Notes: generated from the sequence alone by a model not told the origin. A stretch of 20,000 bases of DNA from Candidatus Baldrarchaeum yapensis (GCA_016840465.1 JAEOSH010000001.1:89263-109262), one strand, 5' to 3'. Shown: positions 3,754-12,470, counted from the first letter of the stretch. A program made the numbers and translations.

Positions 3754-4876
3754 TTTCCTCGTTCTCTCTTCTTATAAGCGGTACAGGATACCTTAATAAT
3801 GCAATAACATCGCCAAAACTCTTTAACTGCCTAGCAACAGGACTTTTCTCCGAGCATATGATAATATTTCCTTTACTAGTTTCTACATTCCTCAAAAGTT
3901 CATCTATTTTTTGCCTGTTTTCCGTTCCGAGCGCTCTTATTAAATTTTCGGAGATTAGGAGTTCTTGAATCGCACCAATTTTTGCACATTCGGAAACTTC
4001 ATCGATTCCATAGGCAATATTTTGCTCATTCTTCGCAATTCTTCTAAGGAACTCTTCCATAATCTTTGATTCCTGAAGTATGTGCATATCTGATAGTATC
4101 TTTGAAATTACCCCTCTCTTTATGGCCTCATAGAGCGCGCTTTCACTGGCACTGCTCGTGGTGTCAGTTATTATTCCCTTCGTTTGAATATTTCCTTTTT
4201 TCTCGATATACTCCTTCAAACGGTCTTTTACAAAGCCCGGACCGACTATTACTAACGGTAGATCCTTATGACCAATCCTTTCCACAACTTCCTTTAGAAC
4301 TTCGGTTATCCTCTCAAAGAACTTTCTCAACTCGTACTCATATCCCTCAACATCATAGCTTTTTCCACTAACATTACTTGACAATGTGTGCGTAACTGTA
4401 ACCCCACGATCACTGATCACTCCTATTGTCGCTTCAGATTCATCTACCGCAACTATTACTACTTGGGGACGCTGTACTGCCCTCACCGCTTCATTTAACC
4501 TTCTCAGCATATACTCGGGCCACTCGTCCTTAACAATTTTTAGAGTCGTTCCCGGTTCGACATTAATCGTGTGATATGCACCCATCGGAACCAAATCTTC
4601 CGGTCCTTCTACTATTTTTCCCTTTATTCTCAATCTCGTAGAGTACTCGTGAAACTTGACATCCTCCACCTTTATACCTAAATATACCACGACTCGTTCG
4701 CCACGTTTTCGCCTGATAGAGTTACGTCGGGAAATGCTTCTTACAGTCTTCGCAAAAACCAGGTCACCCGGCATTATAATGTTAAATAAATGCCAGAGAT
4801 CATCGAATGATTCGGGAACTACTACGATTTCTCCATGTTTCAAGTTTGCTTCCAATATCTTCAAGGGTTCACTCAC
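3737..4876 (-). CDS. pelA: mRNA surveillance protein pelota (Dom34 family)
   Basis: 379 aa: EPLKILEANLKHGEIVVVPESFDDLWHLFNII, GDLVFAKTVRSISR, VIVAVDESEATIGVI, GPGFVKDRLKEYI, typical of archaeal pelota. Confidence 0.93.
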   Translation of the reverse strand: MSEPLKILEANLKHGEIVVVPESFDDLWHLFNIIMPGDLVFAKTVRSISRRNSIRRKRGERVVVYLGIKVEDVKFHEYSTRLRIKGKIVEGPEDLVPMGAYHTINVEPGTTLKIVKDEWPEYMLRRLNEAVRAVQRPQVVIVAVDESEATIGVISDRGVTVTHTLSSNVSGKSYDVEGYEYELRKFFERITEVLKEVVERIGHKDLPLVIVGPGFVKDRLKEYIEKKGNIQTKGIITDTTSSASESALYEAIKRGVISKILSDMHILQESKIMEEFLRRIAKNEQNIAYGIDEVSECAKIGAIQELLISENLIRALGTENRQKIDELLRNVETSKGNIIICSEKSPVARQLKSFGDVIALLRYPVPLIRRENEENVENE

Positions 4877-5974: not shown

Positions 5975-6681
5975 TTTTCAAAAATTCTTCTCCGAATAAT
6001 AGGATCCCTATCCGCCAGTTTCTTCAAATAACTTTCAAAGGTTTCATCTTTTGGTACTTCTCTTTTGAGATAAACACCCGTTCTGCCAATTGCATCTCTT
6101 CGTAGTAAAATCTTCACACGCTCTTCAACAACTTTTACGTCTACACCAAGAATATCTGCAACCTCCGATTCACGCCCCACGACGGGCATTTCTATATGCC
6201 CATACTCTGTCGGTATGATTAACATCAGTCGCTTATCCACACCTGGGACTCTTTTCCCTGCTAAGAGTTCTTCAACATTCAGGCATCCGCTAAATTTGTA
6301 AAACTCCCATTCATTTTCTCTTAATTCTGTCAAGGGGAAAGTCACGGAAGTCTTCTCATCGATGTATATATGAGCCTTTATACTATGCCATGGAGTTGCC
6401 TGCACGATTTCCCTAGAATATATTGGATATTCGGCAGAGGAGAGAACTAGTTCCACTTTGTAGGATGGAACCACAACTGGTATGAATATATCAATATCGC
6501 TATCCTTATTCACATCCCCTCTAGCAACACTGCCATGAACAATACTATCGAAACCATTATCTTTGAGGCACACCATTATTTTTACAGCCTTATCCCTTAA
6601 TTCCCGTAAAAGTTTCCACCTTTCGTCCGTGTATATTACCTCAATGGTATCACCTGATACTACTGGCTTCCTCCTTGTCAT
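5971..6681 (-). CDS. Nucleotidyltransferase domain-containing protein
   Basis: Pol-beta-like motif VHGSVARGDVNKDSDIDIFIPV. Overlaps the upstream CutA-like ORF end. Confidence 0.8.
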   Translation of the reverse strand: MTRRKPVVSGDTIEVIYTDERWKLLRELRDKAVKIMVCLKDNGFDSIVHGSVARGDVNKDSDIDIFIPVVVPSYKVELVLSSAEYPIYSREIVQATPWHSIKAHIYIDEKTSVTFPLTELRENEWEFYKFSGCLNVEELLAGKRVPGVDKRLMLIIPTEYGHIEMPVVGRESEVADILGVDVKVVEERVKILLRRDAIGRTGVYLKREVPKDETFESYLKKLADRDPIIRRRIFEK

Positions 6682-7009
6682 TCACAACTTCACCAATCCA
6701 CTTCAAGTAGTCTTCTAATCCGTCGATTATCGGTAGAATAATTGCTTCAGGAACCTCATAAGGATGTTCCTTCTTTATGACAGAGATTGCAGATTTTGAT
6801 TTCTTTTTTGTTGTTTTTATCATGAGCACGTATTCAACTGCCTCTTCTATCTTTCCTTCCCACCAATAGAGGGATTTAGCATTTTCTAATATGCTAACAC
6901 ATGCAACTAATTTCCTGTCTAGCAACACCTTGGCGATTCTCAATGCTGATTCTCTAGAGGGTGTTGTGGTAATTATTAATACGTATTCTGGCGTTTCCAT
7001 AATCATCAC
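6650..7009 (-). CDS. cutA: CutA-like divalent-cation tolerance protein
   Basis: LIITTTPSRESALRIAKVLLDRKLVACVSILENAKSLYWWEGKIEEAVEYVLMIKTT and HPYEVPEAIILPI are CutA signatures. Confidence 0.93.
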   Translation of the reverse strand: MMIMETPEYVLIITTTPSRESALRIAKVLLDRKLVACVSILENAKSLYWWEGKIEEAVEYVLMIKTTKKKSKSAISVIKKEHPYEVPEAIILPIIDGLEDYLKWIGEVVNDKEEASSIR

Positions 7010-7079
7010 CGGAATGCATTTCAGAAAGTTACTTATGAAGGTGGTGATATTTCTTCATGTTTGGCGTCAAGGTGGTTTC

Positions 7080-8246
7080 ATGATTGAGGCTTTCATCTAT
7101 ATACTCATCTTTTGGGCGACAATCGCAATGGTTTCGTCAATGATAGACCTGCGTAAGTATAATATTGAAGTATATCCTTTCGTCCTGAGCTTTAAGACAA
7201 AAAGACTCAATACCTTCATAAACAAGATTTCTACAAAGTATGTTTCCGTATGGAGAAAAATATGGACCGTCGGCGTTGTTATTTCACTATGCTTAATGGT
7301 ATTCGCAGTTTATTTGCTAATCGATAACCTAGTTGCAAGTTTTGAGTCGAGACCTATAACACCCGTTGCACCTTTAATTCCTGGGATTACAATAACGGGT
7401 TACACGCTGATATATGCACTTCTTGGAATCACAATAACAGCAATTTCGCACGAGCTTGCTCATGGAATCGCAGCAGGATCGGAGGGATTGAGAGTAAAAA
7501 GCACAGGATTGATAGTAATTGGGGTGTTATTTGGGGCGTTTGTTGAACTTGATGATAGGGAAGTAAAAAAACTAAGCCCTAAAAGGAGATTATACGTATT
7601 CTCCGCTGGCTCGGCATCAAACGTTGTTATCGCATTTCTCTTTCTTGCTCTAATAGCGACATTTCCCCTAATCATAAGCCCTATTTACAACACCTCCCCT
7701 ACCGGAGTCGTCGTTGTAGAATTGGTGAGCGATGGACCTGCGTATAAGGCTGGCATCACGAAGGGGGATGTTATAACGCACATAAATAATACTCCCATAA
7801 ACGGCGTTAACGATCTTAACAAGATTCTATCCAGAACATCTCCTAATGACACTGTAGTGGTAAGTACGCTGAGAGGGAATTTCACTGTAAGGTTATCTCC
7901 TTGTCCACGGAATTCATCGCGTGGTTATCTTGGAGTTTACGTTTTTGATTATTATAGTTCCAGAGTGCCCCTCCTTGAGAGCATTCTTACTCCTCTGTTT
8001 CCCTACCACATTTATGAAACTTTGCTATGGACGTTCATGATTTCCTTTAGTGTTGCGCTCTTTAATATGTTACCCATACCTCCCTTTGATGGTGATAGAC
8101 TCTTAGCGTCAATTCTTGAAGCGTTTAATATCAGGAAGAACATAAGAAACTACGTAAGGGTGACTGTTGCATGTATTTGTACTATTCTACTGCTATTAAA
8201 CATCATATTTACCTTTATGTCGTTTGGAATTGTGATTTTCTCGTAA
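7080..8246 (+). CDS. M50-family (site-2 protease) membrane metalloprotease with PDZ domain
   Basis: HELAHG zinc motif, PDZ-like segment VVELVSDGPAYKAGITKGDVITHINN, and NMLPIPPFDGDRLL. The start is probably ATG at 7080, behind a GGTGG Shine-Dalgarno-like sequence, rather than the track start at 6891. Confidence 0.92.
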   Translation: MIEAFIYILIFWATIAMVSSMIDLRKYNIEVYPFVLSFKTKRLNTFINKISTKYVSVWRKIWTVGVVISLCLMVFAVYLLIDNLVASFESRPITPVAPLIPGITITGYTLIYALLGITITAISHELAHGIAAGSEGLRVKSTGLIVIGVLFGAFVELDDREVKKLSPKRRLYVFSAGSASNVVIAFLFLALIATFPLIISPIYNTSPTGVVVVELVSDGPAYKAGITKGDVITHINNTPINGVNDLNKILSRTSPNDTVVVSTLRGNFTVRLSPCPRNSSRGYLGVYVFDYYSSRVPLLESILTPLFPYHIYETLLWTFMISFSVALFNMLPIPPFDGDRLLASILEAFNIRKNIRNYVRVTVACICTILLLLNIIFTFMSFGIVIFS

Positions 8247-8337
8247 ATATATGCAAGCCTTCCACTTGAGATAATTAGCGATTTTGGTTTTTGTTGCTTG
8301 ACTCTTCACACAAGAAATATGGCATCAGACGTTAAGT

Positions 8338-8344
8338 TTATATG
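8338..8344 (+). promoter_or_regulatory. TATA box for the permuted 5S rRNA transcript
   Basis: TTTATAT lies about 26 nt upstream of the first base of the 12-bp terminal stem (8368), the usual archaeal TATA to +1 distance. Confidence 0.6.
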
Positions 8345-8367
8345 GAGGCTCAACTTCCGCAATTACT

Positions 8368-8527
8368 GGTGCAACGCCGCGTGAGAGTTAAGCCTCCGCA
8401 CGTTCCCGGGAGTACTGTCCTCCGCGAGGGGACGGGAAACCGGGAAGCTGCTCACCCACATGGGTGGGCGGCCATAGTGCGGAGGGCAACACCCGTTCCC
8501 ATTCCGACCACGGAACGGCGTTGCACC
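8368..8527 (+). rRNA. Circularly permuted 5S rRNA precursor; predicted mature circle is 8386-8514 (129 nt)
   Basis: The canonical 3' part (GTTAAGCCTCCGCACGTTCCCGGGAGTACTGTCCTCCGCGAGGGGACGGGAAACCGGGAAGCTGCTCACCC, 8387-8457) comes before the canonical 5' part (GGGTGGGCGGCCATAGTGCGGAGGGCAACACCCGTTCCCATTCCGACCACGGAA, 8462-8515). Helix I 8447-8457/8462-8472, helix II 8477-8485/8393-8401 (9 bp perfect), helix III CCGT/ACGG, helix IV GTCCTC/GGGGAC with GCGA-type loop, helix V TTCCCGG/CCGGGAA. Terminal stem 8368-8379/8516-8527. Confidence 0.93.
8380..8515 (+). promoter_or_regulatory. Bulge-helix-bulge splicing motif pairing the two ends of the permuted 5S transcript
   Basis: Outer stem GGTGCAACGCCG/CGGCGTTGCACC; central 4-bp helix CGTG (8380-8383)/CACG (8509-8512); 3-nt bulges AGA (8384-8386) and GAA (8513-8515); inner pairs GTT (8387-8389)/GAC (8506-8508). 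Predicted cuts are after 8385 and after 8514. Confidence 0.88.
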
Positions 8528-8540
8528 GCTCCTTCTAATA

Positions 8541-8549
8541 CTTTATAAG
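8541..8549 (+). promoter_or_regulatory. TATA box for downstream DUF1512-like gene
   Basis: CTTTATAAG, upstream of the CDS starting at 8601. Confidence 0.5.
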
Positions 8550-8600
8550 TGGTGTCGGATACAAGTAATAACCATGAGCGATGATAAGATGCCGTAGAGG

Positions 8601-9761
8601 ATGATAATTGTGCAACCACTTGTTCAGGAAGAGAGCACATTTGTACAATGGCTGATATTGTTATTCTTCATGATATCCATATTTATGTCAATGTTTTATG
8701 AGAAGATTAGATTTTCCGCTGGAATCAGACAGATAAAGATGGAGTTAATGAAGTTGGAAAGGCTCGCGAAAAACGGAAAAGAGTTGGTAATAAATGCAGT
8801 AAAGGAAATAGGGAAGCCCGGGTTTGATCCAAGTAATAGAATCTTAGAGTTCTTAGAGTTCTTTATGATAGAGCCAGTAGATAGAGATCCTTTTGGTATC
8901 ATGAAAAAGCTAGAGCATCTGATTAATCTGAGAAGGGACGTTTTCCGCAGGTTTCTATCTGAAGTCGCGCCAAATGCGTCGAGGGATGAACGTGCAAACC
9001 TGGAGGGCGCATTAGAGGCCACAATTGTGATAGATTACTTATTTAGACTTGTGAGGCATTATTTGATACTCAGCGAGAGAACTAAGAGTTACATTCTAGT
9101 TGCACAACTGCAGTTGCAACTACCGCTTGTGATGAGATATGCAAAGGCGTACTTTGAGGCTTTAAAGGCATTTAAAGATGGAAAACCGATAGGAGATGGT
9201 ATAGGTGTACTTGTGGCAACGAAATTCGTGTACGATCTTGCGAAGGACGGAGAAAGTAGGGTGACCTTTAAGGAAATCGTAGAAGATACATTGGTTACCG
9301 AGGTAATGTTTGAGGGACGAAAGATTTTCGTTGTAAGAGCAAAGGGACCTGGAGCGTTCGTTGGAAAGCCAGGCGATGCAATTGTTAAAATCATAGAAGA
9401 CTGTAAAGGAAAAAATGACATATCTAGGATCATTATGATCGATGCTGCATTGAAACTTGAAGGAGAGCGTAGCGGTGAGGTTGCTGAGGGTGTTGGGGCA
9501 GCAATAGGTGGCATAGGTGTTGACAGGTTTAAGATAGAGGAAATAGCTACAAAATATGGGATTCCTCTTGATGCAATAATAATTAAGGAGTCCCTAGAGG
9601 AGGCCATTAGCCCACTCAAAAAGGAGATTTTTGAGAGTGTAAATGAGGTAATAAAAAGAATAAAAAGAATTATTCTCCAGTCGACAAAACCCGGGGATGC
9701 AATCATACTTGCTGGTATTGGTAATGCTGCTGGGATAGGCTTCATGAAGCTTTCTTCCTGA
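8601..9761 (+). CDS. DUF1512-like conserved archaeal membrane-anchored protein
   Basis: 386 aa with one N-terminal transmembrane segment and a long conserved soluble region (VVRAKGPGAFVGKPGDAIVKIIE; GVGAAIGGIGVDRFKIEEIA; GDAIILAGIGNAAGIG). Family assigned from memory. Confidence 0.7.
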   Translation: MIIVQPLVQEESTFVQWLILLFFMISIFMSMFYEKIRFSAGIRQIKMELMKLERLAKNGKELVINAVKEIGKPGFDPSNRILEFLEFFMIEPVDRDPFGIMKKLEHLINLRRDVFRRFLSEVAPNASRDERANLEGALEATIVIDYLFRLVRHYLILSERTKSYILVAQLQLQLPLVMRYAKAYFEALKAFKDGKPIGDGIGVLVATKFVYDLAKDGESRVTFKEIVEDTLVTEVMFEGRKIFVVRAKGPGAFVGKPGDAIVKIIEDCKGKNDISRIIMIDAALKLEGERSGEVAEGVGAAIGGIGVDRFKIEEIATKYGIPLDAIIIKESLEEAISPLKKEIFESVNEVIKRIKRIILQSTKPGDAIILAGIGNAAGIGFMKLSS

Positions 9762-9773
9762 TGGTGATGCCAT

Positions 9774-10163
9774 ATGAAAAGATCTTTAATGTCATTGTCG
9801 ATTATGCTCCTCATGTTAGTGGTCTTCTCTGTTATAATATATTTACTTCTTAACTTTGTGGCCACAATGCAAGAGTCTTCGATTTCTCTGTTTATGATGA
9901 TTTTTACGATCCTTATTATTTACTTGATCCTTTTACCAGTAATATCTCAGTTCGCTAGAATGTATAGAGTGGCAAAAATGAGGCAGATTATGCCTTCTCT
10001 GCTGTCGGTGATAAAATGTCAAGATTGCAATTATGTTCTCGTTAGGGAATTTTTAACGGGAGATTATGTGTTTAAGAACGTCGGAAAATGTTATAAGTGC
10101 GGCGGTAATCTCTACATAGACGCAATATACTTAACATCCGAAAAGAAAGGAAAGGGTGCATAA
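9774..10163 (+). CDS. Small membrane protein with C-terminal zinc ribbon, unknown function
   Basis: Two hydrophobic segments, then CQDCNYVLVREFL...GKCYKCGGNLY (CxxC...CxxC). Confidence 0.65.
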   Translation: MKRSLMSLSIMLLMLVVFSVIIYLLLNFVATMQESSISLFMMIFTILIIYLILLPVISQFARMYRVAKMRQIMPSLLSVIKCQDCNYVLVREFLTGDYVFKNVGKCYKCGGNLYIDAIYLTSEKKGKGA

Positions 10164-10166
10164 AAT

Positions 10167-10844
10167 ATGGCGGTGAAACTTACATTCTTAGGTCATGCAG
10201 CATTCAAGATAGATCATGGCGATAAAACTATTCTTATAGATCCCTTCATAACTGGCAATCCTCTCTGCCCGATCAAAGTCGAGGATATAAGGAAGTGCGA
10301 CATAATTCTCGTAACACACGATCATGGAGACCATTTAGGGGACACCATAAAGATCGCGAAAAATACTGGTGCAAAAGTGGTTGCAATATACGATTTAGGA
10401 GTATTTATAGAGAAAAATGGCGTCACCAATGTTATAGGAATGAATATTGGTGGTTCGACCGATATAGACGGAATTAAAGTGACAATGGTAAAGGCGTTCC
10501 ATAGTGCCGAGAGAGGCGCTCCCGTTGGCTATATCATAAGGTTAGGAAATGTTGCAATTTACCACGCAGGCGATACTGACGTATTCTACGATATGAAGTT
10601 AATAGGAGATCTCTATCGACCGGATGTAGCATTACTTCCAATATCAGGATACTACACGATGGGACCCTTGGAGGCCGCATACGCTACCCAATTAATAAAG
10701 CCGAAGATTGCTATTCCCATGCATTACAATACCTTTCCAGTAATTAAGCAAGATCCAAACGTGTTCGCAGAGAATGTAAAGAAATTATGCCCCGAGGTTG
10801 AGGTTAAAATACTAAATCCCGGAGAGACGATTACCATTGGATGA
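10167..10844 (+). CDS. Metallo-beta-lactamase-fold metal-dependent hydrolase (UPF0173-like)
   Basis: LGHAAFKIDHGDKTILIDPFITGNP, VTHDHGDHLGDT, YHAGDTDVFYDMKLI, PMHYNTFPVI. Confidence 0.93.
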   Translation: MAVKLTFLGHAAFKIDHGDKTILIDPFITGNPLCPIKVEDIRKCDIILVTHDHGDHLGDTIKIAKNTGAKVVAIYDLGVFIEKNGVTNVIGMNIGGSTDIDGIKVTMVKAFHSAERGAPVGYIIRLGNVAIYHAGDTDVFYDMKLIGDLYRPDVALLPISGYYTMGPLEAAYATQLIKPKIAIPMHYNTFPVIKQDPNVFAENVKKLCPEVEVKILNPGETITIG

Positions 10845-11343
10845 GTTCAAACTCAAAAAAGTCGGAGTTGCGGGCACGTTTGATAAACTGCATAAGGGTC
10901 ACAAACTTTTACTTTTAACGGCATTTTCTGCAGGAGAAAGAGTAATAATAGGTATTACTTCCGAGAAGTTGATAAAGGGCAAGAAAATGTGCCAAAAGAT
11001 AGCCCCATTTGACGAGAGAGTTAAAAAGGTAAAGGAATTTCTCTCAAGCCGAGGCTTTAAGGATTATAATATAATTAAATTAGACGATCCTTATGGTCCC
11101 GCAATTAATGATCCCTCGATGGACGGATTAGTTGTAACTAGGGAAACCTTAAACAACGCACTCGCTATTAACAAGATTAGAATAAAACAGGGAATGAAAC
11201 CACTTACCTTAATAGTGGTTCCATTGGTACTTGCCGAGGATGGACTTCCAATATCCTCTACTCGTATAAGACTAGGAGAAATAGATGAGAACGGAAAATT
11301 GAAGACGTATTCAGGAGGTTTATGTCGCAATCGAAAGGTGTGA
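10837..11343 (+). CDS. coaD: Phosphopantetheine adenylyltransferase, archaeal type
   Basis: GVAGTFDKLHKGHKLLLLTAF (HxGH-type nucleotidyltransferase), GLVVTRETLNNALAINKIR, ISSTRIRLGEI. Confidence 0.9.
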   Translation: MDEFKLKKVGVAGTFDKLHKGHKLLLLTAFSAGERVIIGITSEKLIKGKKMCQKIAPFDERVKKVKEFLSSRGFKDYNIIKLDDPYGPAINDPSMDGLVVTRETLNNALAINKIRIKQGMKPLTLIVVPLVLAEDGLPISSTRIRLGEIDENGKLKTYSGGLCRNRKV

Positions 11344-11353
11344 GAAGGACTAC

Positions 11354-11360
11354 CTTTTTA
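11354..11360 (+). promoter_or_regulatory. Candidate TATA box for the H/ACA locus
   Basis: T-rich CTTTTTAT-like element about 26-30 nt before 11386, where the GC-rich structured RNA begins. Confidence 0.35.
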
Positions 11361-11385
11361 TTCCGTGTGGAATAATAAGTAATAA

Positions 11386-11496
11386 GCACCCCGCCGCGAA
11401 ATCCGTGCTTGATGGGCTCCCGCACTTTTGAGGCGCGGTGCGTCACCGCATACCGATGAGTGCGGAGTCAACCCAGGCACGGGACAGGCGGGGTGC
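11386..11496 (+). ncRNA. H/ACA-type guide RNA module 1
   Basis: Outer helix GCACCCCGCC (11386-11395)/GGCGGGGTGC (11487-11496). Lower stem TCCGTGC (11402-11408)/GCACGGG (11477-11483) is followed directly by ACA (11484-11486). Pocket TTGATGGG/TCAACCCAG; upper stem CTCC(C)GCAC/GTGCGGAG; GCGGTG CGT CACCGC apical hairpin. Exactly 16 nt lie between the upper stem and ACA. Confidence 0.65.
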
Positions 11497-11497
11497 A

Positions 11498-11602
11498 GGG
11501 GTGGGTGCAGTAAGGGCCCACTACAAGAGAGCCCAGTGGAGAGCGGCGTATGCCGCCCAGTGACACTGGGTGTTAGTCATGTGGGCCACATGCACCCACC
11601 CC
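11498..11602 (+). ncRNA. H/ACA-type guide RNA module 2 with kink-turn
   Basis: Outer helix GGGGTGGGTGCA (11498-11509)/TGCACCCACCCC (11591-11602). Lower stem GGCCCAC (11515-11521)/GTGGGCC (11581-11587) is followed directly by ACA (11588-11590). Pocket TACAAGAGA/GTTAGTCAT; upper stem GCCCAGTG (11531-11538)/CACTGGGT (11564-11571). K-turn with tandem GA (11539-11540)/GA (11562-11563) and AGT 3-nt loop; apical stem GCGGC GTAT GCCGC. Pocket-to-ACA spacing is 16 nt. Confidence 0.75.
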
Positions 11603-11621
11603 AACTTCGTGGTGGTAGCGG

Positions 11622-12470
11622 TTGCGTGTAAAGGTAAAATCATTGAGGGAAATGCTTAAGGAAATTTTTGGTGAAGACATCCCCGCAGACATTCCGAGAA
11701 AATATAAAATTTATGGAGATATTGCTGTAGTTAAGATACCAAGCAAATACCGCCACTTGAAGAAAGAGATTGGAGATCTTATTCTAAAGAACGACCCACG
11801 GATTAGATCGGTCGTAAATATTGAGAAAATTCATGGAACTTTCCGAGAGCCAATAGCTGAGGTCATCGCAGGGGACCCGAATACCGTTACGACTATCATT
11901 GAAAATTCATGTAGGTTCAAGCTTGATGTCGCCAAGCTTATGTTTTGCTTAGGGAACCAGCATGAGCGCGTGCGATTGGCGAATATAGTTTTTTCCGATG
12001 AGGTAGTTGTCGATATGTTCGCGGGGGTCGGACAATTTTCAATACCGATAGCGGTACATTGCAAACCGGAGAGAATATTTGCAATAGAAATTAATCCCAC
12101 AGCGTTTCGCTTCTTAGTAGAAAATATATTTATCAATCACGTCGAGGAAGTAATTTTCCCGATATTGGGCAATTGTAGAGAGGTAATTCCTGCATTCCTG
12201 AAAGGACGTGCCGATAGGATAATAATGGGGTTCATTGAGTACACAAACAGATACTTGGATGCCGCGCTTGTGGCTTTGAGGGATAAAGGAGGAATCATAC
12301 ACTTTCATAACGTTTATAATTCGGAGGACGCTATTGAGATGGCGATTTCCGATATAAAGGATGCCGCAGAAAGATCTAGAAGGAGACTCGTAAAAGTAAT
12401 ACACAAGCGTATAGTGAAGGAGTATGGGCCCAAGCTTGTACATGTTGTGATAGATGCAAAAATAAAATGA
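11622..12470 (+). CDS. Class I SAM-dependent methyltransferase, Trm5/TYW2-like tRNA methyltransferase
   Basis: VVDMFAGVGQFSIPIAVHCKPERIFAIEINPTAFRFLVENIFINHV and HFHNVY are Trm5-family motifs. Start is TTG 11622 or ATG 11652. Confidence 0.87.
   Translation: MRVKVKSLREMLKEIFGEDIPADIPRKYKIYGDIAVVKIPSKYRHLKKEIGDLILKNDPRIRSVVNIEKIHGTFREPIAEVIAGDPNTVTTIIENSCRFKLDVAKLMFCLGNQHERVRLANIVFSDEVVVDMFAGVGQFSIPIAVHCKPERIFAIEINPTAFRFLVENIFINHVEEVIFPILGNCREVIPAFLKGRADRIIMGFIEYTNRYLDAALVALRDKGGIIHFHNVYNSEDAIEMAISDIKDAAERSRRRLVKVIHKRIVKEYGPKLVHVVIDAKIK

What the first reader, a model, noticed from the sequence alone, without database searches (positions are those of the whole stretch)
8380..8515. A BHB motif joins the ends of the permuted 5S; splicing recreates the exact canonical sequence and predicts a circular 5S rRNA
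The new ends form 12 bp (8368-8379/8516-8527) + 4 bp CGTG/CACG + two 3-nt bulges (AGA, GAA), each 3' of the central helix, + inner GTT/GAC. This matches the geometry of the tRNA-intron BHB cut by the archaeal splicing endonuclease. Cutting between bulge nt 2 and 3 (after 8385 and 8514) and ligating 8514 to 8386 gives ...CCGACCACGGA|AGTTAAGCCTCC..., the consensus CACGGAAGUUAAGCC. The unspliced transcript reads CACGGAACGGCG and GAGAGTTAAG instead. The product would be a 129-nt circle, with a leader-trailer fusion as by-product. If the circle stays closed, the ribosome would carry a 5S rRNA without ends.
Basis: partly seen in the sequence, partly recalled or inferred. Interest (0 to 1): 0.97.

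Follow-up and report, generated by a model that had tools for sequence, protein, structure and literature searches.

The report
Permuted 5S rRNA gene, splice-circularised
This Asgard (Baldrarchaeia) archaeon encodes its 5S ribosomal RNA with the two halves swapped, flanked by a motif of the kind the tRNA-splicing enzymes cut. Cutting and joining there would give an exact, probably circular 5S rRNA, and the same design in several Asgard classes explains why standard tools miss their 5S genes.

Summary
Window 8386-8514 is a 5S rRNA gene with its 3' part (8386-8457) encoded before its 5' part (8462-8514). Helix I is capped by the loop ACAU. The new ends sit in a canonical bulge-helix-bulge (BHB) motif: a 12-bp outer helix, the 4-bp central helix CGUG/CACG, and two 3-nt bulges.

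Cutting after 8385 and 8514 and joining 8514 to 8386 gives CACGGA|AGUUAAGCC. This is the Rfam 5S consensus with no indel, on a 129-nt circle that folds as a normal 5S.

I found the same architecture in Odin-, Baldr-, Jord- and Asgardarchaeum-type MAGs, in MAGs labelled Heimdallarchaeota, and in unlabelled metagenome contigs, 17 distinct sequences in all. Across them:
- The outer helix is paired in 153 of 153 cells, with many compensatory changes.
- The central helix is paired in 67 of 68 cells.
- Two BHB registers occur, and both restore CGGAAGUYAAGC.
- Discarded bulge bases vary; retained ones do not.

Rfam's gathering threshold misses every permuted copy. A paper on closed Heimdallarchaeum genomes reports that no 5S could be predicted.

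No paper in the searchable library describes this. The closest precedent is the permuted, circular SRP RNA of Thermoproteus. Cleavage, ligation and persistence of the circle are inferred, not shown.

The parts
8337..8344 (+). TATA-box-like promoter element (TTTATATG), preceded by a BRE-like purine-rich stretch at 8330-8336. It predicts a transcription start at about 8367/8368, the first base of the leader helix.
   Evidence: a TTTATA-type box starts 25-34 nt upstream of the outer helix in most of the permuted loci (-30 in the window). The start site is inferred from the usual archaeal spacing, not mapped.
8368..8379 (+). Leader strand of the outer (exon-side) helix h of the BHB. It is discarded with the by-product.
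   Evidence: 12 nt, 100% complementary to 8516-8527; 12 of 13 pairs show compensatory changes; 153 of 153 cells are paired across 17 sequences.
8380..8383 (+). 5' strand (CGUG) of the 4-bp central BHB helix.
   Evidence: It pairs with 8509-8512. Across lineages 67 of 68 cells are paired, with the variants CGUG/CACG, CCGU/GCGG, CCGC/GCGG and CUGG/ACGG.
8384..8386 (+). 5' bulge AGA. The predicted cut lies between 8385 and 8386, so A8386 becomes the 5'-OH end of the excised 5S.
   Evidence: In relatives the bulge is AAA, AUA or AAG. Bulge nt 2 (discarded) varies G/A/U, while the retained nt 3 always matches the 5S consensus.
8386..8457 (+). 3' part of the 5S rRNA. It holds the second A of the helix III AA bulge, GUUAAG, the 3' strand of helix II, helices V and IV with their loops, and the 3' strand of helix I.
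   Evidence: Rfam model 3' half, 8381-8456. (HMM positions about 54-119). (helices IV, V and I covary).
8458..8461 (+). Four-base loop ACAU that caps helix I where a normal 5S has its 5' and 3' ends.
   Evidence: In relatives the cap is UUCG in most of the distinct sequences, UACG in Jord, and CACG or UUUG elsewhere.
8462..8514 (+). 5' part of the 5S rRNA. It holds the 5' strand of helix I, loop A (CCAUAG), the 5' strand of helix II, and helix III with loop C up to ...CACGGA.
   Evidence: Rfam model positions 1 to about 52. (HMM positions 6-54)..
8509..8512 (+). 3' strand (CACG) of the central BHB helix. These bases also belong to mature helix III, so the BHB and mature helix III are alternative pairings.
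   Evidence: With the BHB core enforced, the best fold is -92.4 kcal/mol against an MFE of -94.0.
8513..8515 (+). 3' bulge GAA. The predicted cut lies between 8514 and 8515, so A8514 becomes the 3' end that is joined to A8386.
   Evidence: Bulge nt 3 (discarded) is A or U in relatives, while nt 1-2 are fixed within each register.
8516..8527 (+). Trailer strand of the outer helix. It is discarded and predicted to be ligated to the leader as a small hairpin by-product.

Best explanation
This is the functional 5S rRNA gene of an uncultured Asgard archaeon. NCBI labels the MAG Candidatus Baldrarchaeia. The gene is encoded in circularly permuted order.

A small independent transcript of about 160 nt starts at the leader helix. 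It folds so that leader and trailer form a 12-bp helix. This helix presents the two new ends of the 5S in a bulge-helix-bulge motif.

The archaeal tRNA-splicing endonuclease (EndA) cuts between nucleotides 2 and 3 of each bulge, after 8385 and after 8514. The RNA ligase RtcB then joins A8514 to A8386. That junction lies inside the conserved AA bulge of helix III and restores the canonical sequence ...CACGGAAGUUAAGCC...

The product is a 129-nt covalently closed 5S rRNA whose helix I is capped by a tetraloop. It most likely enters the ribosome as a circle. The leader and trailer are released, probably ligated into a hairpin.

Shown here: the permutation, the BHB geometry, the exact restoration of the 5S sequence and fold, conservation and covariation across Asgard lineages, and invisibility to standard 5S annotation.

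Inferred: the promoter and start site, EndA cleavage, RtcB ligation, and persistence of the circle.
For: 1. Permuted 5S. Rfam gives two half hits in swapped order. The rearranged sequence matches an HMM of normal 5S genes full length at 62.4 bits. Both the linearised and the circular product fold into helices I-V.

2. BHB. The geometry is exact at the stated coordinates. The BHB conformer lies only 1.6 kcal/mol above the MFE at 37 C and 2.0 at 70 C.

3. Recurrence. One DNA pattern that demands the permuted order found the same gene in GTDB genomes labelled Odinarchaeota, Baldrarchaeota, Jordarchaeia, Asgardarchaeum abyssi and Heimdallarchaeota, and in metagenome contigs. The relatives first reached through the neighbouring DUF1512 gene also carry it.

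4. Covariation. On alignment A1, 95.8% of cells pair, against 76.4% in shuffles and 35-49% with slid partners. The outer helix has compensatory changes at 12 of 13 pairs. Normalised for register over 17 distinct sequences, the outer helix pairs in 153 of 153 cells and the central helix in 67 of 68.

5. Two registers. CGUG/CACG is cut GGA|AGU, and CCGU/GCGG is cut GGAA|GUC. Both regenerate CGGAAGUYAAGC. This is expected only if the cut-and-join product is what selection sees.

6. Bulge positions predicted to be discarded vary; retained ones do not.

7. A TATA-like box lies about 30 nt upstream of the helix start in most lineages, and oligo-T follows the trailer in several.

8. Helix I is capped by UUCG or UACG tetraloops on covarying stems in most lineages. 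This fits a cap that stays in the mature RNA.

9. Asgard archaea carry an (alpha-beta)2 EndA with the L1 loop, which confers broad BHB specificity (PMC5829648).

10. Precedent. The permuted SRP RNA gene of Thermoproteus is cut by the splicing endonuclease and functions as a circle (PMC4731332).

11. Rfam at gathering threshold finds no 5S in the window or in 19 permuted loci, while a control colinear 5S scores 93.3 bits. Closed Heimdallarchaeum genomes were reported with no predictable 5S (PMC8813620).
Against: - There are no RNA data, so cleavage, ligation and circularity are untested.
- The central helix uses bases that belong to mature helix III. The BHB must therefore compete with a local hairpin, and the unconstrained MFE does not show the BHB.
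- Within the main register the central helix is invariant. Its covariation evidence comes only from the second register.
- The inner helix is weak: 3 pairs in the window, and a G-A mismatch followed by 2 pairs in most relatives.
- The window's own cap loop, ACAU, is not a known stable tetraloop.
- I could not scan the whole genome, so a second, colinear 5S gene elsewhere is not excluded.
- The window has no clear oligo-T terminator after the trailer.
Confidence: 0.78

Rival explanations
1. The first steps are the same: EndA cuts at the BHB and RtcB ligates. But the circle is only an intermediate. A second nuclease opens or removes the helix I cap (8458-8461), giving a conventional linear 5S. 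This is what happens to permuted tRNA genes and to many circular pre-16S/23S RNAs.
For: - Permuted tRNAs are expressed through a circular intermediate (Soma 2007, as cited in PMC4267664). My own knowledge, not taken from a paper read here: that intermediate is then opened at the natural termini.
- Circular pre-16S/23S RNAs are generally thought to be re-linearised (PMC12918454).
- The window's cap ACAU is not a classic stable tetraloop.
Against: - The caps are only 4 nt and are mostly UUCG or UACG on GC-rich covarying stems. That is a poor nuclease target and looks selected for stability.
- No conserved processing motif or tRNA-like element lies at the cap.
- The Thermoproteus SRP RNA and the 23S rRNA of many archaea stay circular.
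Confidence: 0.17
2. EndA, or another nuclease, trims the precursor at the bulges but the ends are not ligated. The ribosome then carries a linear, permuted 5S with a nick in the AA bulge of helix III and a capped helix I. This would parallel the permuted linear 5S of brown-algal mitochondria.
For: - A nicked molecule would hold exactly the same bases as the ligated one, so the perfect sequence restoration does not by itself prove ligation.
- Permuted linear 5S rRNAs exist in organelles (PMC4267664).
Against: - EndA leaves a 2',3'-cyclic phosphate and a 5'-OH. These are the substrates of the archaeal ligase RtcB (established knowledge; RtcB ligation after EndA cleavage is stated in PMC10515664).
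- Excised BHB-bounded RNAs such as tRNA introns and pre-rRNAs are routinely found circular in archaea.
- The ends would be held together by only 2 bp on one side of the nick.
Confidence: 0.05
3. The locus is not a working gene. It would be a rearranged pseudogene, an assembly artefact, or a leader-trailer stem processed by an enzyme unrelated to the splicing endonuclease.
For: - Rfam does not call it a 5S at the gathering threshold.
- The rest of the genome could not be inspected for a colinear copy.
Against: - Identical sequence occurs in four independent assemblies of the same species.
- The same architecture is seen in many assemblies from different studies and lineages, with compensatory changes in every helix.
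- A promoter-like box sits at the right distance.
- The exact 4-bp and 3-nt geometry is kept in two registers.
Confidence: 0.02

Closest known systems
Permuted SRP RNA gene of Thermoproteus tenax (Plagens et al. 2015, eLife; PMC4731332)
   Same: - An essential structured non-coding RNA gene was 'missing' from annotation because its halves are swapped.
[quoted passage not shown]
- The ligation junction lies inside the functional RNA, and the circle is the mature, functional form.
   Different: - The RNA is different: SRP RNA of about 300 nt against 5S rRNA of 115-129 nt.
- That case is confined to some Thermoproteus species, whereas this one spans several Asgard classes.
- That case has RNA-seq and biochemical proof; this one has none.
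Permuted tRNA genes (Cyanidioschyzon merolae, Soma et al. 2007; Thermofilum and other archaea, Chan et al. 2011)
   Same: The 3' half is encoded upstream of the 5' half, a BHB lies at the new ends, and expression goes through a circular RNA made by the splicing machinery (cited).
   Different: In permuted tRNAs the natural termini are joined by a linker. My own knowledge, not taken from a paper read here: that linker is removed so that the final tRNA is linear. Here the natural termini are joined by a tight 4-nt cap with no evident processing signal.
BHB-dependent circular pre-16S/pre-23S rRNA, and circular or permuted 23S in mature archaeal ribosomes (PMC12918454; PMC7758197; bioRxiv 10.64898/2026.03.23.713588)
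   Same: A leader-trailer helix carries a BHB, EndA cuts, RtcB ligates, and an rRNA circle results. In many lineages the 23S circle is retained in the ribosome.
   Different: - Those genes are colinear, and the junction lies at or outside the mature ends.
- Here the gene itself is permuted and the junction rebuilds an internal conserved element, so the RNA cannot have a continuous helix III without ligation.
- These papers state that circularisation applies to 16S and 23S 'but not 5S' and know of no BHB at 5S genes.
Permuted mitochondrial 5S rRNA of brown algae and other stramenopiles (Valach et al. 2014; PMC4267664; Rfam mtPerm-5S)
   Same: It is a 5S rRNA in which conventional helix I no longer carries the molecule's ends, and which standard models miss.
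   Different: - The organellar ends lie at the three-way junction, not in helix III.
- That molecule is permuted and linear in its final form.
- It has no BHB and no splicing machinery.
Low-level circular 5S reads in Sulfolobus, Halobacterium and Pyrococcus (Danan et al. 2012, PMC3326292; cited)
   Same: Circular forms of 5S rRNA have been seen in archaeal circRNA-seq.
   Different: Those genes are colinear and have no BHB. The circles were rare, were not validated by RT-PCR, and may be degradation or side products.

Membership tests
5S rRNA (Rfam RF00001) | Scores at or above the curated gathering threshold (38 bits) as a colinear match | tested here: not met
   no hit at gathering. Two half hits of 25.7 and 15.8 bits lie in swapped order. 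The same holds for 19 related loci, while a control colinear 5S scores 93.3 bits.
5S rRNA (Rfam RF00001) | Full set of conserved sequence elements and helices I-V once the two parts are placed in canonical order | tested here: met
   the rearranged sequence matches an HMM of 14 colinear 5S genes over positions 6-118 at 62.4 bits, with no indel at the junction; canonical three-helix-junction fold for both the linearised and the circular product; helices I, II, IV and V covary. cmscan could not be run on a rearranged sequence with these tools.
Canonical hBHBh' substrate of the archaeal splicing endonuclease | Two 3-nt bulges on opposite strands, separated by exactly 4 bp, each bulge 3' of its central-helix strand | tested here: met
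   the window has AGA/GAA around CGUG/CACG. The 4-bp and 3-nt geometry is kept in all 17 distinct sequences; one has a G-A in the fourth central pair.
Canonical hBHBh' substrate of the archaeal splicing endonuclease | Both flanking helices have at least two Watson-Crick pairs (definition quoted in PMC7714728) | tested here: met
   In the window the outer helix has 12 bp and the inner helix has G-C, U-A and U-G. In most relatives the inner helix starts with G-A, so those are relaxed BHBs. Asgard EndA is of the broad-specificity (alpha-beta)2 + L1 type.
Canonical hBHBh' substrate of the archaeal splicing endonuclease | Actually cleaved by EndA between bulge nucleotides 2 and 3 | not testable with these tools
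   This needs an in vitro cleavage assay or end mapping. Indirect support: only the positions predicted to be discarded vary.
Permuted non-coding RNA genes restored by BHB splicing and circularisation (permuted tRNAs, Thermoproteus SRP RNA) | 3' part encoded upstream of the 5' part on one strand, with the natural termini linked | tested here: met
   8386-8457 is the 3' part, 8458-8461 the cap, and 8462-8514 the 5' part.
Permuted non-coding RNA genes restored by BHB splicing and circularisation (permuted tRNAs, Thermoproteus SRP RNA) | BHB at the new termini whose cut-and-join product restores the canonical sequence | tested here: met
   the junction is CACGGA|AGUUAAGCC in the window. All lineages and both registers give CGGAAGUYAAGC.
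Permuted non-coding RNA genes restored by BHB splicing and circularisation (permuted tRNAs, Thermoproteus SRP RNA) | Circular RNA with the predicted junction detected in cells | not testable with these tools
   No transcriptome data are available here.
Circular pre-rRNA processing intermediates (16S/23S type) | Colinear gene, with the BHB in a processing stem outside the mature sequence | tested here: not met
   The gene is permuted, and both cut sites and the junction lie inside the mature 5S, in the helix III AA bulge.
Organellar permuted 5S (mtPerm-5S type) | Ends relocated to the junction of the alpha and gamma domains, with a linear final product and no BHB (PMC4267664) | tested here: not met
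   Here the break lies in helix III and is flanked by a BHB.

The most novel reading that the evidence does not exclude
A large part of the Asgard archaea, at least Odin-, Baldr-, Jord- and Asgardarchaeum-type lineages and some Heimdall-labelled ones, have no conventional 5S gene. They would depend on the tRNA-splicing endonuclease and ligase to make 5S rRNA from a permuted gene. Their ribosomes would then carry a covalently closed, end-less 5S rRNA. The shared break point in the helix III AA bulge suggests a single ancient permutation that has persisted through the divergence of these classes.
Probability: 0.55. Interest if true: 0.88.

Novelty: new variant of a known kind. Interest (0 to 1): 0.84.

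Why it matters
5S rRNA is a universal ribosome component. Its gene is assumed to be trivially recognisable in archaea.

- A permuted 5S would make ribosome production in these Asgard lineages depend on the tRNA-splicing endonuclease and ligase. It would also add 5S to the rRNAs that can be circular in a working ribosome.
- Recent papers state that circularisation concerns 16S and 23S but not 5S (PMC12918454), and that no BHB is known at 5S genes (bioRxiv 10.64898/2026.03.23.713588).
- It gives a concrete explanation for a practical puzzle: closed Heimdallarchaeum genomes in which no 5S could be predicted (PMC8813620). It also bears on MAG quality standards that ask for a 5S gene.
- It yields a directly testable prediction, a 23-mer junction sequence that is absent from the genome.
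- Because Asgard archaea are the closest known relatives of eukaryotes, unusual features of their ribosome biogenesis attract wide interest.

Tried and rejected
- ARAGORN found no tRNA in the window or in L007. This rules out a permuted or split tRNA as the explanation.
- The search for related loci with the DUF1512 neighbour found nothing in genome contigs. I reached relatives through the search for homologous proteins plus look-up of encoding contigs instead.
A pattern starting with AAGC would have picked up about 12% of normal 5S genes by chance. I used the reverse-complement form anchored on AGTYAAGC. About 40% of the hits were still colinear 5S genes with a chance upstream AGTYAAGC. I separated these by the AGT[GCT]AA that follows CGGA.
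- RNAalifold on A1 paired the leader CGUG with CACG/CGCG inside the 3' strand of helix II, not with 8509-8512. I rejected this pairing because it destroys helix II, shows no two-sided changes, and gives no BHB.
- In Baldr relatives L005 and L006 an alternative register (CCGU/ACGG) is also possible, but it would insert two extra A's at the junction. I rejected it because register 0 is shared with all neighbours and gives the consensus.
- I tried to use an intron-containing tRNA-Trp of the Odin relative (L007 8369-8536) as an internal control for the cleavage rule. It has two insertions and a long anticodon-intron helix and was too ambiguous to use. Instead I derived the rule 'cut between bulge nt 2 and 3' from the canonical 37/38 intron geometry, which is established knowledge. 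It is supported here by the pattern of variable and fixed bulge bases.
- No EndA or RtcB gene lies in the 20-kb window.
- Nine full-text literature searches found no description of a permuted or BHB-flanked archaeal 5S. The library covers only open-access PMC and bioRxiv, so publication elsewhere is not excluded.

Full report
**What is in the sequence.** The 8364-8536 stretch is a GC-rich island (0.575 GC) in a roughly 40% GC archaeal window.
- 8368-8379 GGTGCAACGCCG pairs perfectly with 8516-8527 CGGCGTTGCACC. The repeat finder lists this as I1: 12 nt, 100% complementary.
- CGTG 8380-8383 pairs with CACG 8509-8512.
- AGA 8384-8386 and GAA 8513-8515 are unpaired, each lying 3' of its central-helix strand.
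- G8387-C8508, U8388-A8507 and U8389-G8506 form a short inner helix.
- The stretch 8386-8514 is 129 nt.

**It is a permuted 5S rRNA gene.** At Rfam's gathering threshold the window has no hit at all. With relaxed thresholds the 5S_rRNA model hits twice on the + strand.
- 8464-8563 aligns the model's 5' half up to ...CCGACCACGGAA at 8515 (25.7 bits, E=0.0024).
- 8381-8456 aligns the model's 3' half (15.8 bits).

So the 3' half lies upstream of the 5' half. The two strands of helix I (8447-8457 and 8462-8472) are joined by the loop ACAU.

I built an HMM from 14 colinear 5S genes that my scans happened to collect.
- The window sequence, cut at the BHB and re-opened at the cap, matches it full length (positions 6-118, 62.4 bits).
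- The genomic order gives two swapped pieces of 33.6 and 12.9 bits.

The linearised rearranged RNA and the 129-nt circle both fold by minimum free energy into the standard 5S shape: helix I, helix II, helix III with loop C, and helices IV and V.

**The junction.** The Rfam alignment places the break inside the conserved two-base AA bulge of helix III. Joining A8514 to A8386 gives CACGGA|AGUUAAGCC, which is the consensus CggAAguUAAGc with no base gained or lost.

**The BHB geometry and the cleavage rule.** A canonical archaeal pre-tRNA has its intron at 37/38.
- Position 38 is the last base of the 3' bulge and abuts the anticodon stem.
- Positions 32-35 form the 4-bp helix.
- Positions 36 and 37 plus the first intron base form the 5' bulge.

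Each bulge therefore lies 3' of its central-helix strand and is cut between its second and third base. This is established knowledge of the motif. The definition of hBHBh' is quoted in PMC7714728. The window matches this arrangement exactly, with the 5S in the position of the intron.

The central helix borrows C8509-G8512, which belong to helix III in the mature RNA. The BHB is thus an alternative pre-processing conformer. With the BHB core enforced, the best fold is -92.4 kcal/mol against an MFE of -94.0 at 37 C, and -46.3 against -48.3 at 70 C. The conformer is accessible.

**Organism and context.** The neighbouring genes are ordinary archaeal housekeeping genes. They include PolB, Pelota, an M50 protease, DUF1512, Trm5/Taw2, DnaG-type Toprim proteins and pyruvate:ferredoxin oxidoreductase. 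The same contig occurs in four assemblies. NCBI labels the proteins as from a Candidatus Baldrarchaeia MAG. No EndA or RtcB gene lies in the window.

**Relatives.** The DUF1512 neighbour has its best homologues, at 52-57% identity, in Guaymas/Baldr-type contigs and in Odinarchaeia. Their contigs carry sub-threshold 5S hits. Reading them showed the same permuted gene with the same BHB but different leader-trailer sequences.

I then scanned GTDB species genomes and JGI metagenomes with a pattern that demands the order AGTYAAGC ... CAYAG ... ACCCGNNCNCATNNCGANCNCGGA. Colinear 5S genes with a chance upstream match were removed. The permuted gene was found in MAGs labelled as follows:
- Odinarchaeota;
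- Baldrarchaeota;
- Jordarchaeia/Jordarchaeales;
- Asgardarchaeum abyssi;
- Heimdallarchaeota, in two MAGs;
- an unclassified 'archaeon Dive96' MAG with four copies;
- a 'Thermoproteota' MAG whose 5S is Jord-like;
- several unlabelled metagenome contigs.

In total there are 17 distinct sequences with both flanks.

**Comparative tests.**
- *Overall pairing.* On the 13-sequence alignment A1, my structure (outer helix plus 5S helices) has 95.8% of cells paired, against 76.4% in column shuffles and 35-49% when partners are slid. There are 34 pairs with two-sided changes.
- *Outer helix.* It has compensatory changes at 12 of 13 pairs. Normalised for register over all 17 sequences, it pairs in 153 of 153 cells, with two to four pair types at every position.
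- *Central helix.* It pairs in 67 of 68 cells.
- *Two registers.* Most lineages use CGUG/CACG and cut GGA|AGU. The Heimdall-labelled group, L048 and L028 use CCGU, CCGC or CUGG against GCGG or ACGG, shifted by one base, and cut GGAA|GUC. Both give CGGAAGUYAAGC. A one-base slip that leaves the product unchanged is what selection on the spliced product predicts.
- *Bulge bases.* The bases predicted to be discarded vary (5' bulge nt 2 is G, A or U; 3' bulge nt 3 is A or U). The retained ones are fixed within each register.

**Transcription unit (inferred).** A TTTATA-type box preceded by a purine-rich stretch starts 25-34 nt upstream of the first paired base of the leader in most lineages. In the window it is TTTATAT at 8337-8343, which places the start at about 8367/8368. 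Several relatives have an oligo-T run directly after the trailer; the window does not have a clear one. The unit is therefore a stand-alone transcript of about 160 nt.

**Fate of the circle (inferred).** Helix I is capped by UUCG in most of the distinct sequences, by UACG in the Jord group, and by CACG, UUUG or ACAU elsewhere. The stems covary.
- Four-base UNCG caps are typical stable structural elements and poor nuclease targets.
- No conserved processing signal lies at the cap.
- The Thermoproteus SRP RNA works as a circle, and many archaea keep circular 23S in ribosomes.

On this basis I judge a mature circular 5S more likely than re-linearisation. Only RNA data can decide.

**Enzymes.** Asgard archaea are reported to have the (alpha-beta)2 EndA with the L1 insertion, which confers broad BHB specificity (PMC5829648). 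This fits the weak inner helix seen in most relatives.

**Annotation consequence.** At Rfam's gathering threshold none of 19 permuted loci gives a 5S hit, while a colinear control scores 93.3 bits. Wu et al. [quoted passage not shown] A permuted gene would explain this. I could not scan those genomes.

**Novelty.** Nine full-text searches of open-access PMC and bioRxiv found no description of a permuted or BHB-flanked archaeal 5S.
- A 2026 paper says circularisation applies to 16S and 23S 'but not 5S'.
- A 2026 preprint says that, if circular 5S were confirmed, it would have to form without a BHB.
- Rare circular 5S reads in Sulfolobus and Halobacterium come from colinear genes and were not validated.
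- Permuted organellar 5S is linear, has a different break point and has no BHB.

The mechanism class is known from permuted tRNAs and the Thermoproteus SRP RNA. Its use for 5S rRNA, across Asgard classes, appears to be new: a new variant of a known kind.

**Limits.**
- There are no RNA data.
- The rest of the genome was not inspected for a colinear 5S.
- The MAG labels are those of the depositors.
- The central helix is invariant within the main register.
- The literature search is restricted to the held library.

Noticed in passing
window 11327-11620 (+), between the cytidylyltransferase-like ORF (10837-11343) and the Trm5/Taw2 ORF (11622-12470): A second GC-rich island (0.64 GC) with sub-threshold Rfam matches to the H/ACA guide RNA HgcG/Pab40 (28.2 bits against a gathering score of 77) and to Pyrobac-1 (36.1 against 40). 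The Baldr relative L006 has the same hit at the syntenic spot (4472-4730). It is probably an unannotated H/ACA-type sRNA.
   Followed up: partly
window 8344-8355 versus 8386-8397: GGAGGCTCAACT, lying between the TATA-like box and the leader helix, is 92% complementary to the first 12 bases of the excised 5S (AGTTAAGCCTCC). It lies upstream of the inferred start site, and the relatives I looked at show no equivalent, so it is probably chance.
   Followed up: partly
L012, L013, L016, L017 (MAG 'archaeon Dive96_bin2.176'): Four copies of the permuted 5S, identical over the 115-nt core, each sit at the very end of a contig. The gene is therefore multi-copy in that genome and breaks the assembly.
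   Followed up: no
L014 374-508 (-); L036 5157-5249 and 4877-4985 (-); L044 4480-4572 and 4744-4852 (+): In Asgardarchaeum-type contigs the permuted 5S is followed on the same strand by one or two long, intron-containing tRNA genes. In L014 the first starts about 24 nt after the trailer. Substrates of the splicing endonuclease are thus clustered and possibly co-transcribed.
   Followed up: no
L036 5576-5700 versus 6373-9456; L044; L033; L041: In these contigs the permuted 5S lies about 600-700 bp from the start of the 23S rRNA gene (about 350 bp in the truncated contig L041). In L036, L044 and L033 it is on the opposite strand (divergent). In the window and in Baldr, Odin and Jord contigs it is unlinked from other rRNA genes.
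   Followed up: no
L007 8369-8536 (-): An Odinarchaeia tRNA-Trp (anticodon CCA) gene spans 168 nt with two insertions. One is about 60 nt at the anticodon loop, forming a 9-bp anticodon-intron helix, and the other is about 35 nt in the variable region. ARAGORN misses it.
   Followed up: partly
L005 3190-3362 (-) and L006 931-1103 (-): Sub-threshold 'tmRNA' hits (27.5 bits against a gathering score of 47) lie upstream of the permuted 5S in two Baldr-type contigs. Archaea have no tmRNA, so this is probably a long intron-containing or otherwise disrupted tRNA. Not examined.
   Followed up: no
window 8601-12470; L005; L006: The gene order 5S, DUF1512, small ORF, metallo-beta-lactamase-fold protein is kept between the window and both Baldr-type contigs, although the DUF1512 proteins are only 54-55% identical. 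L006 also keeps the continuation: cytidylyltransferase, H/ACA-like RNA, Trm5/Taw2.
   Followed up: partly
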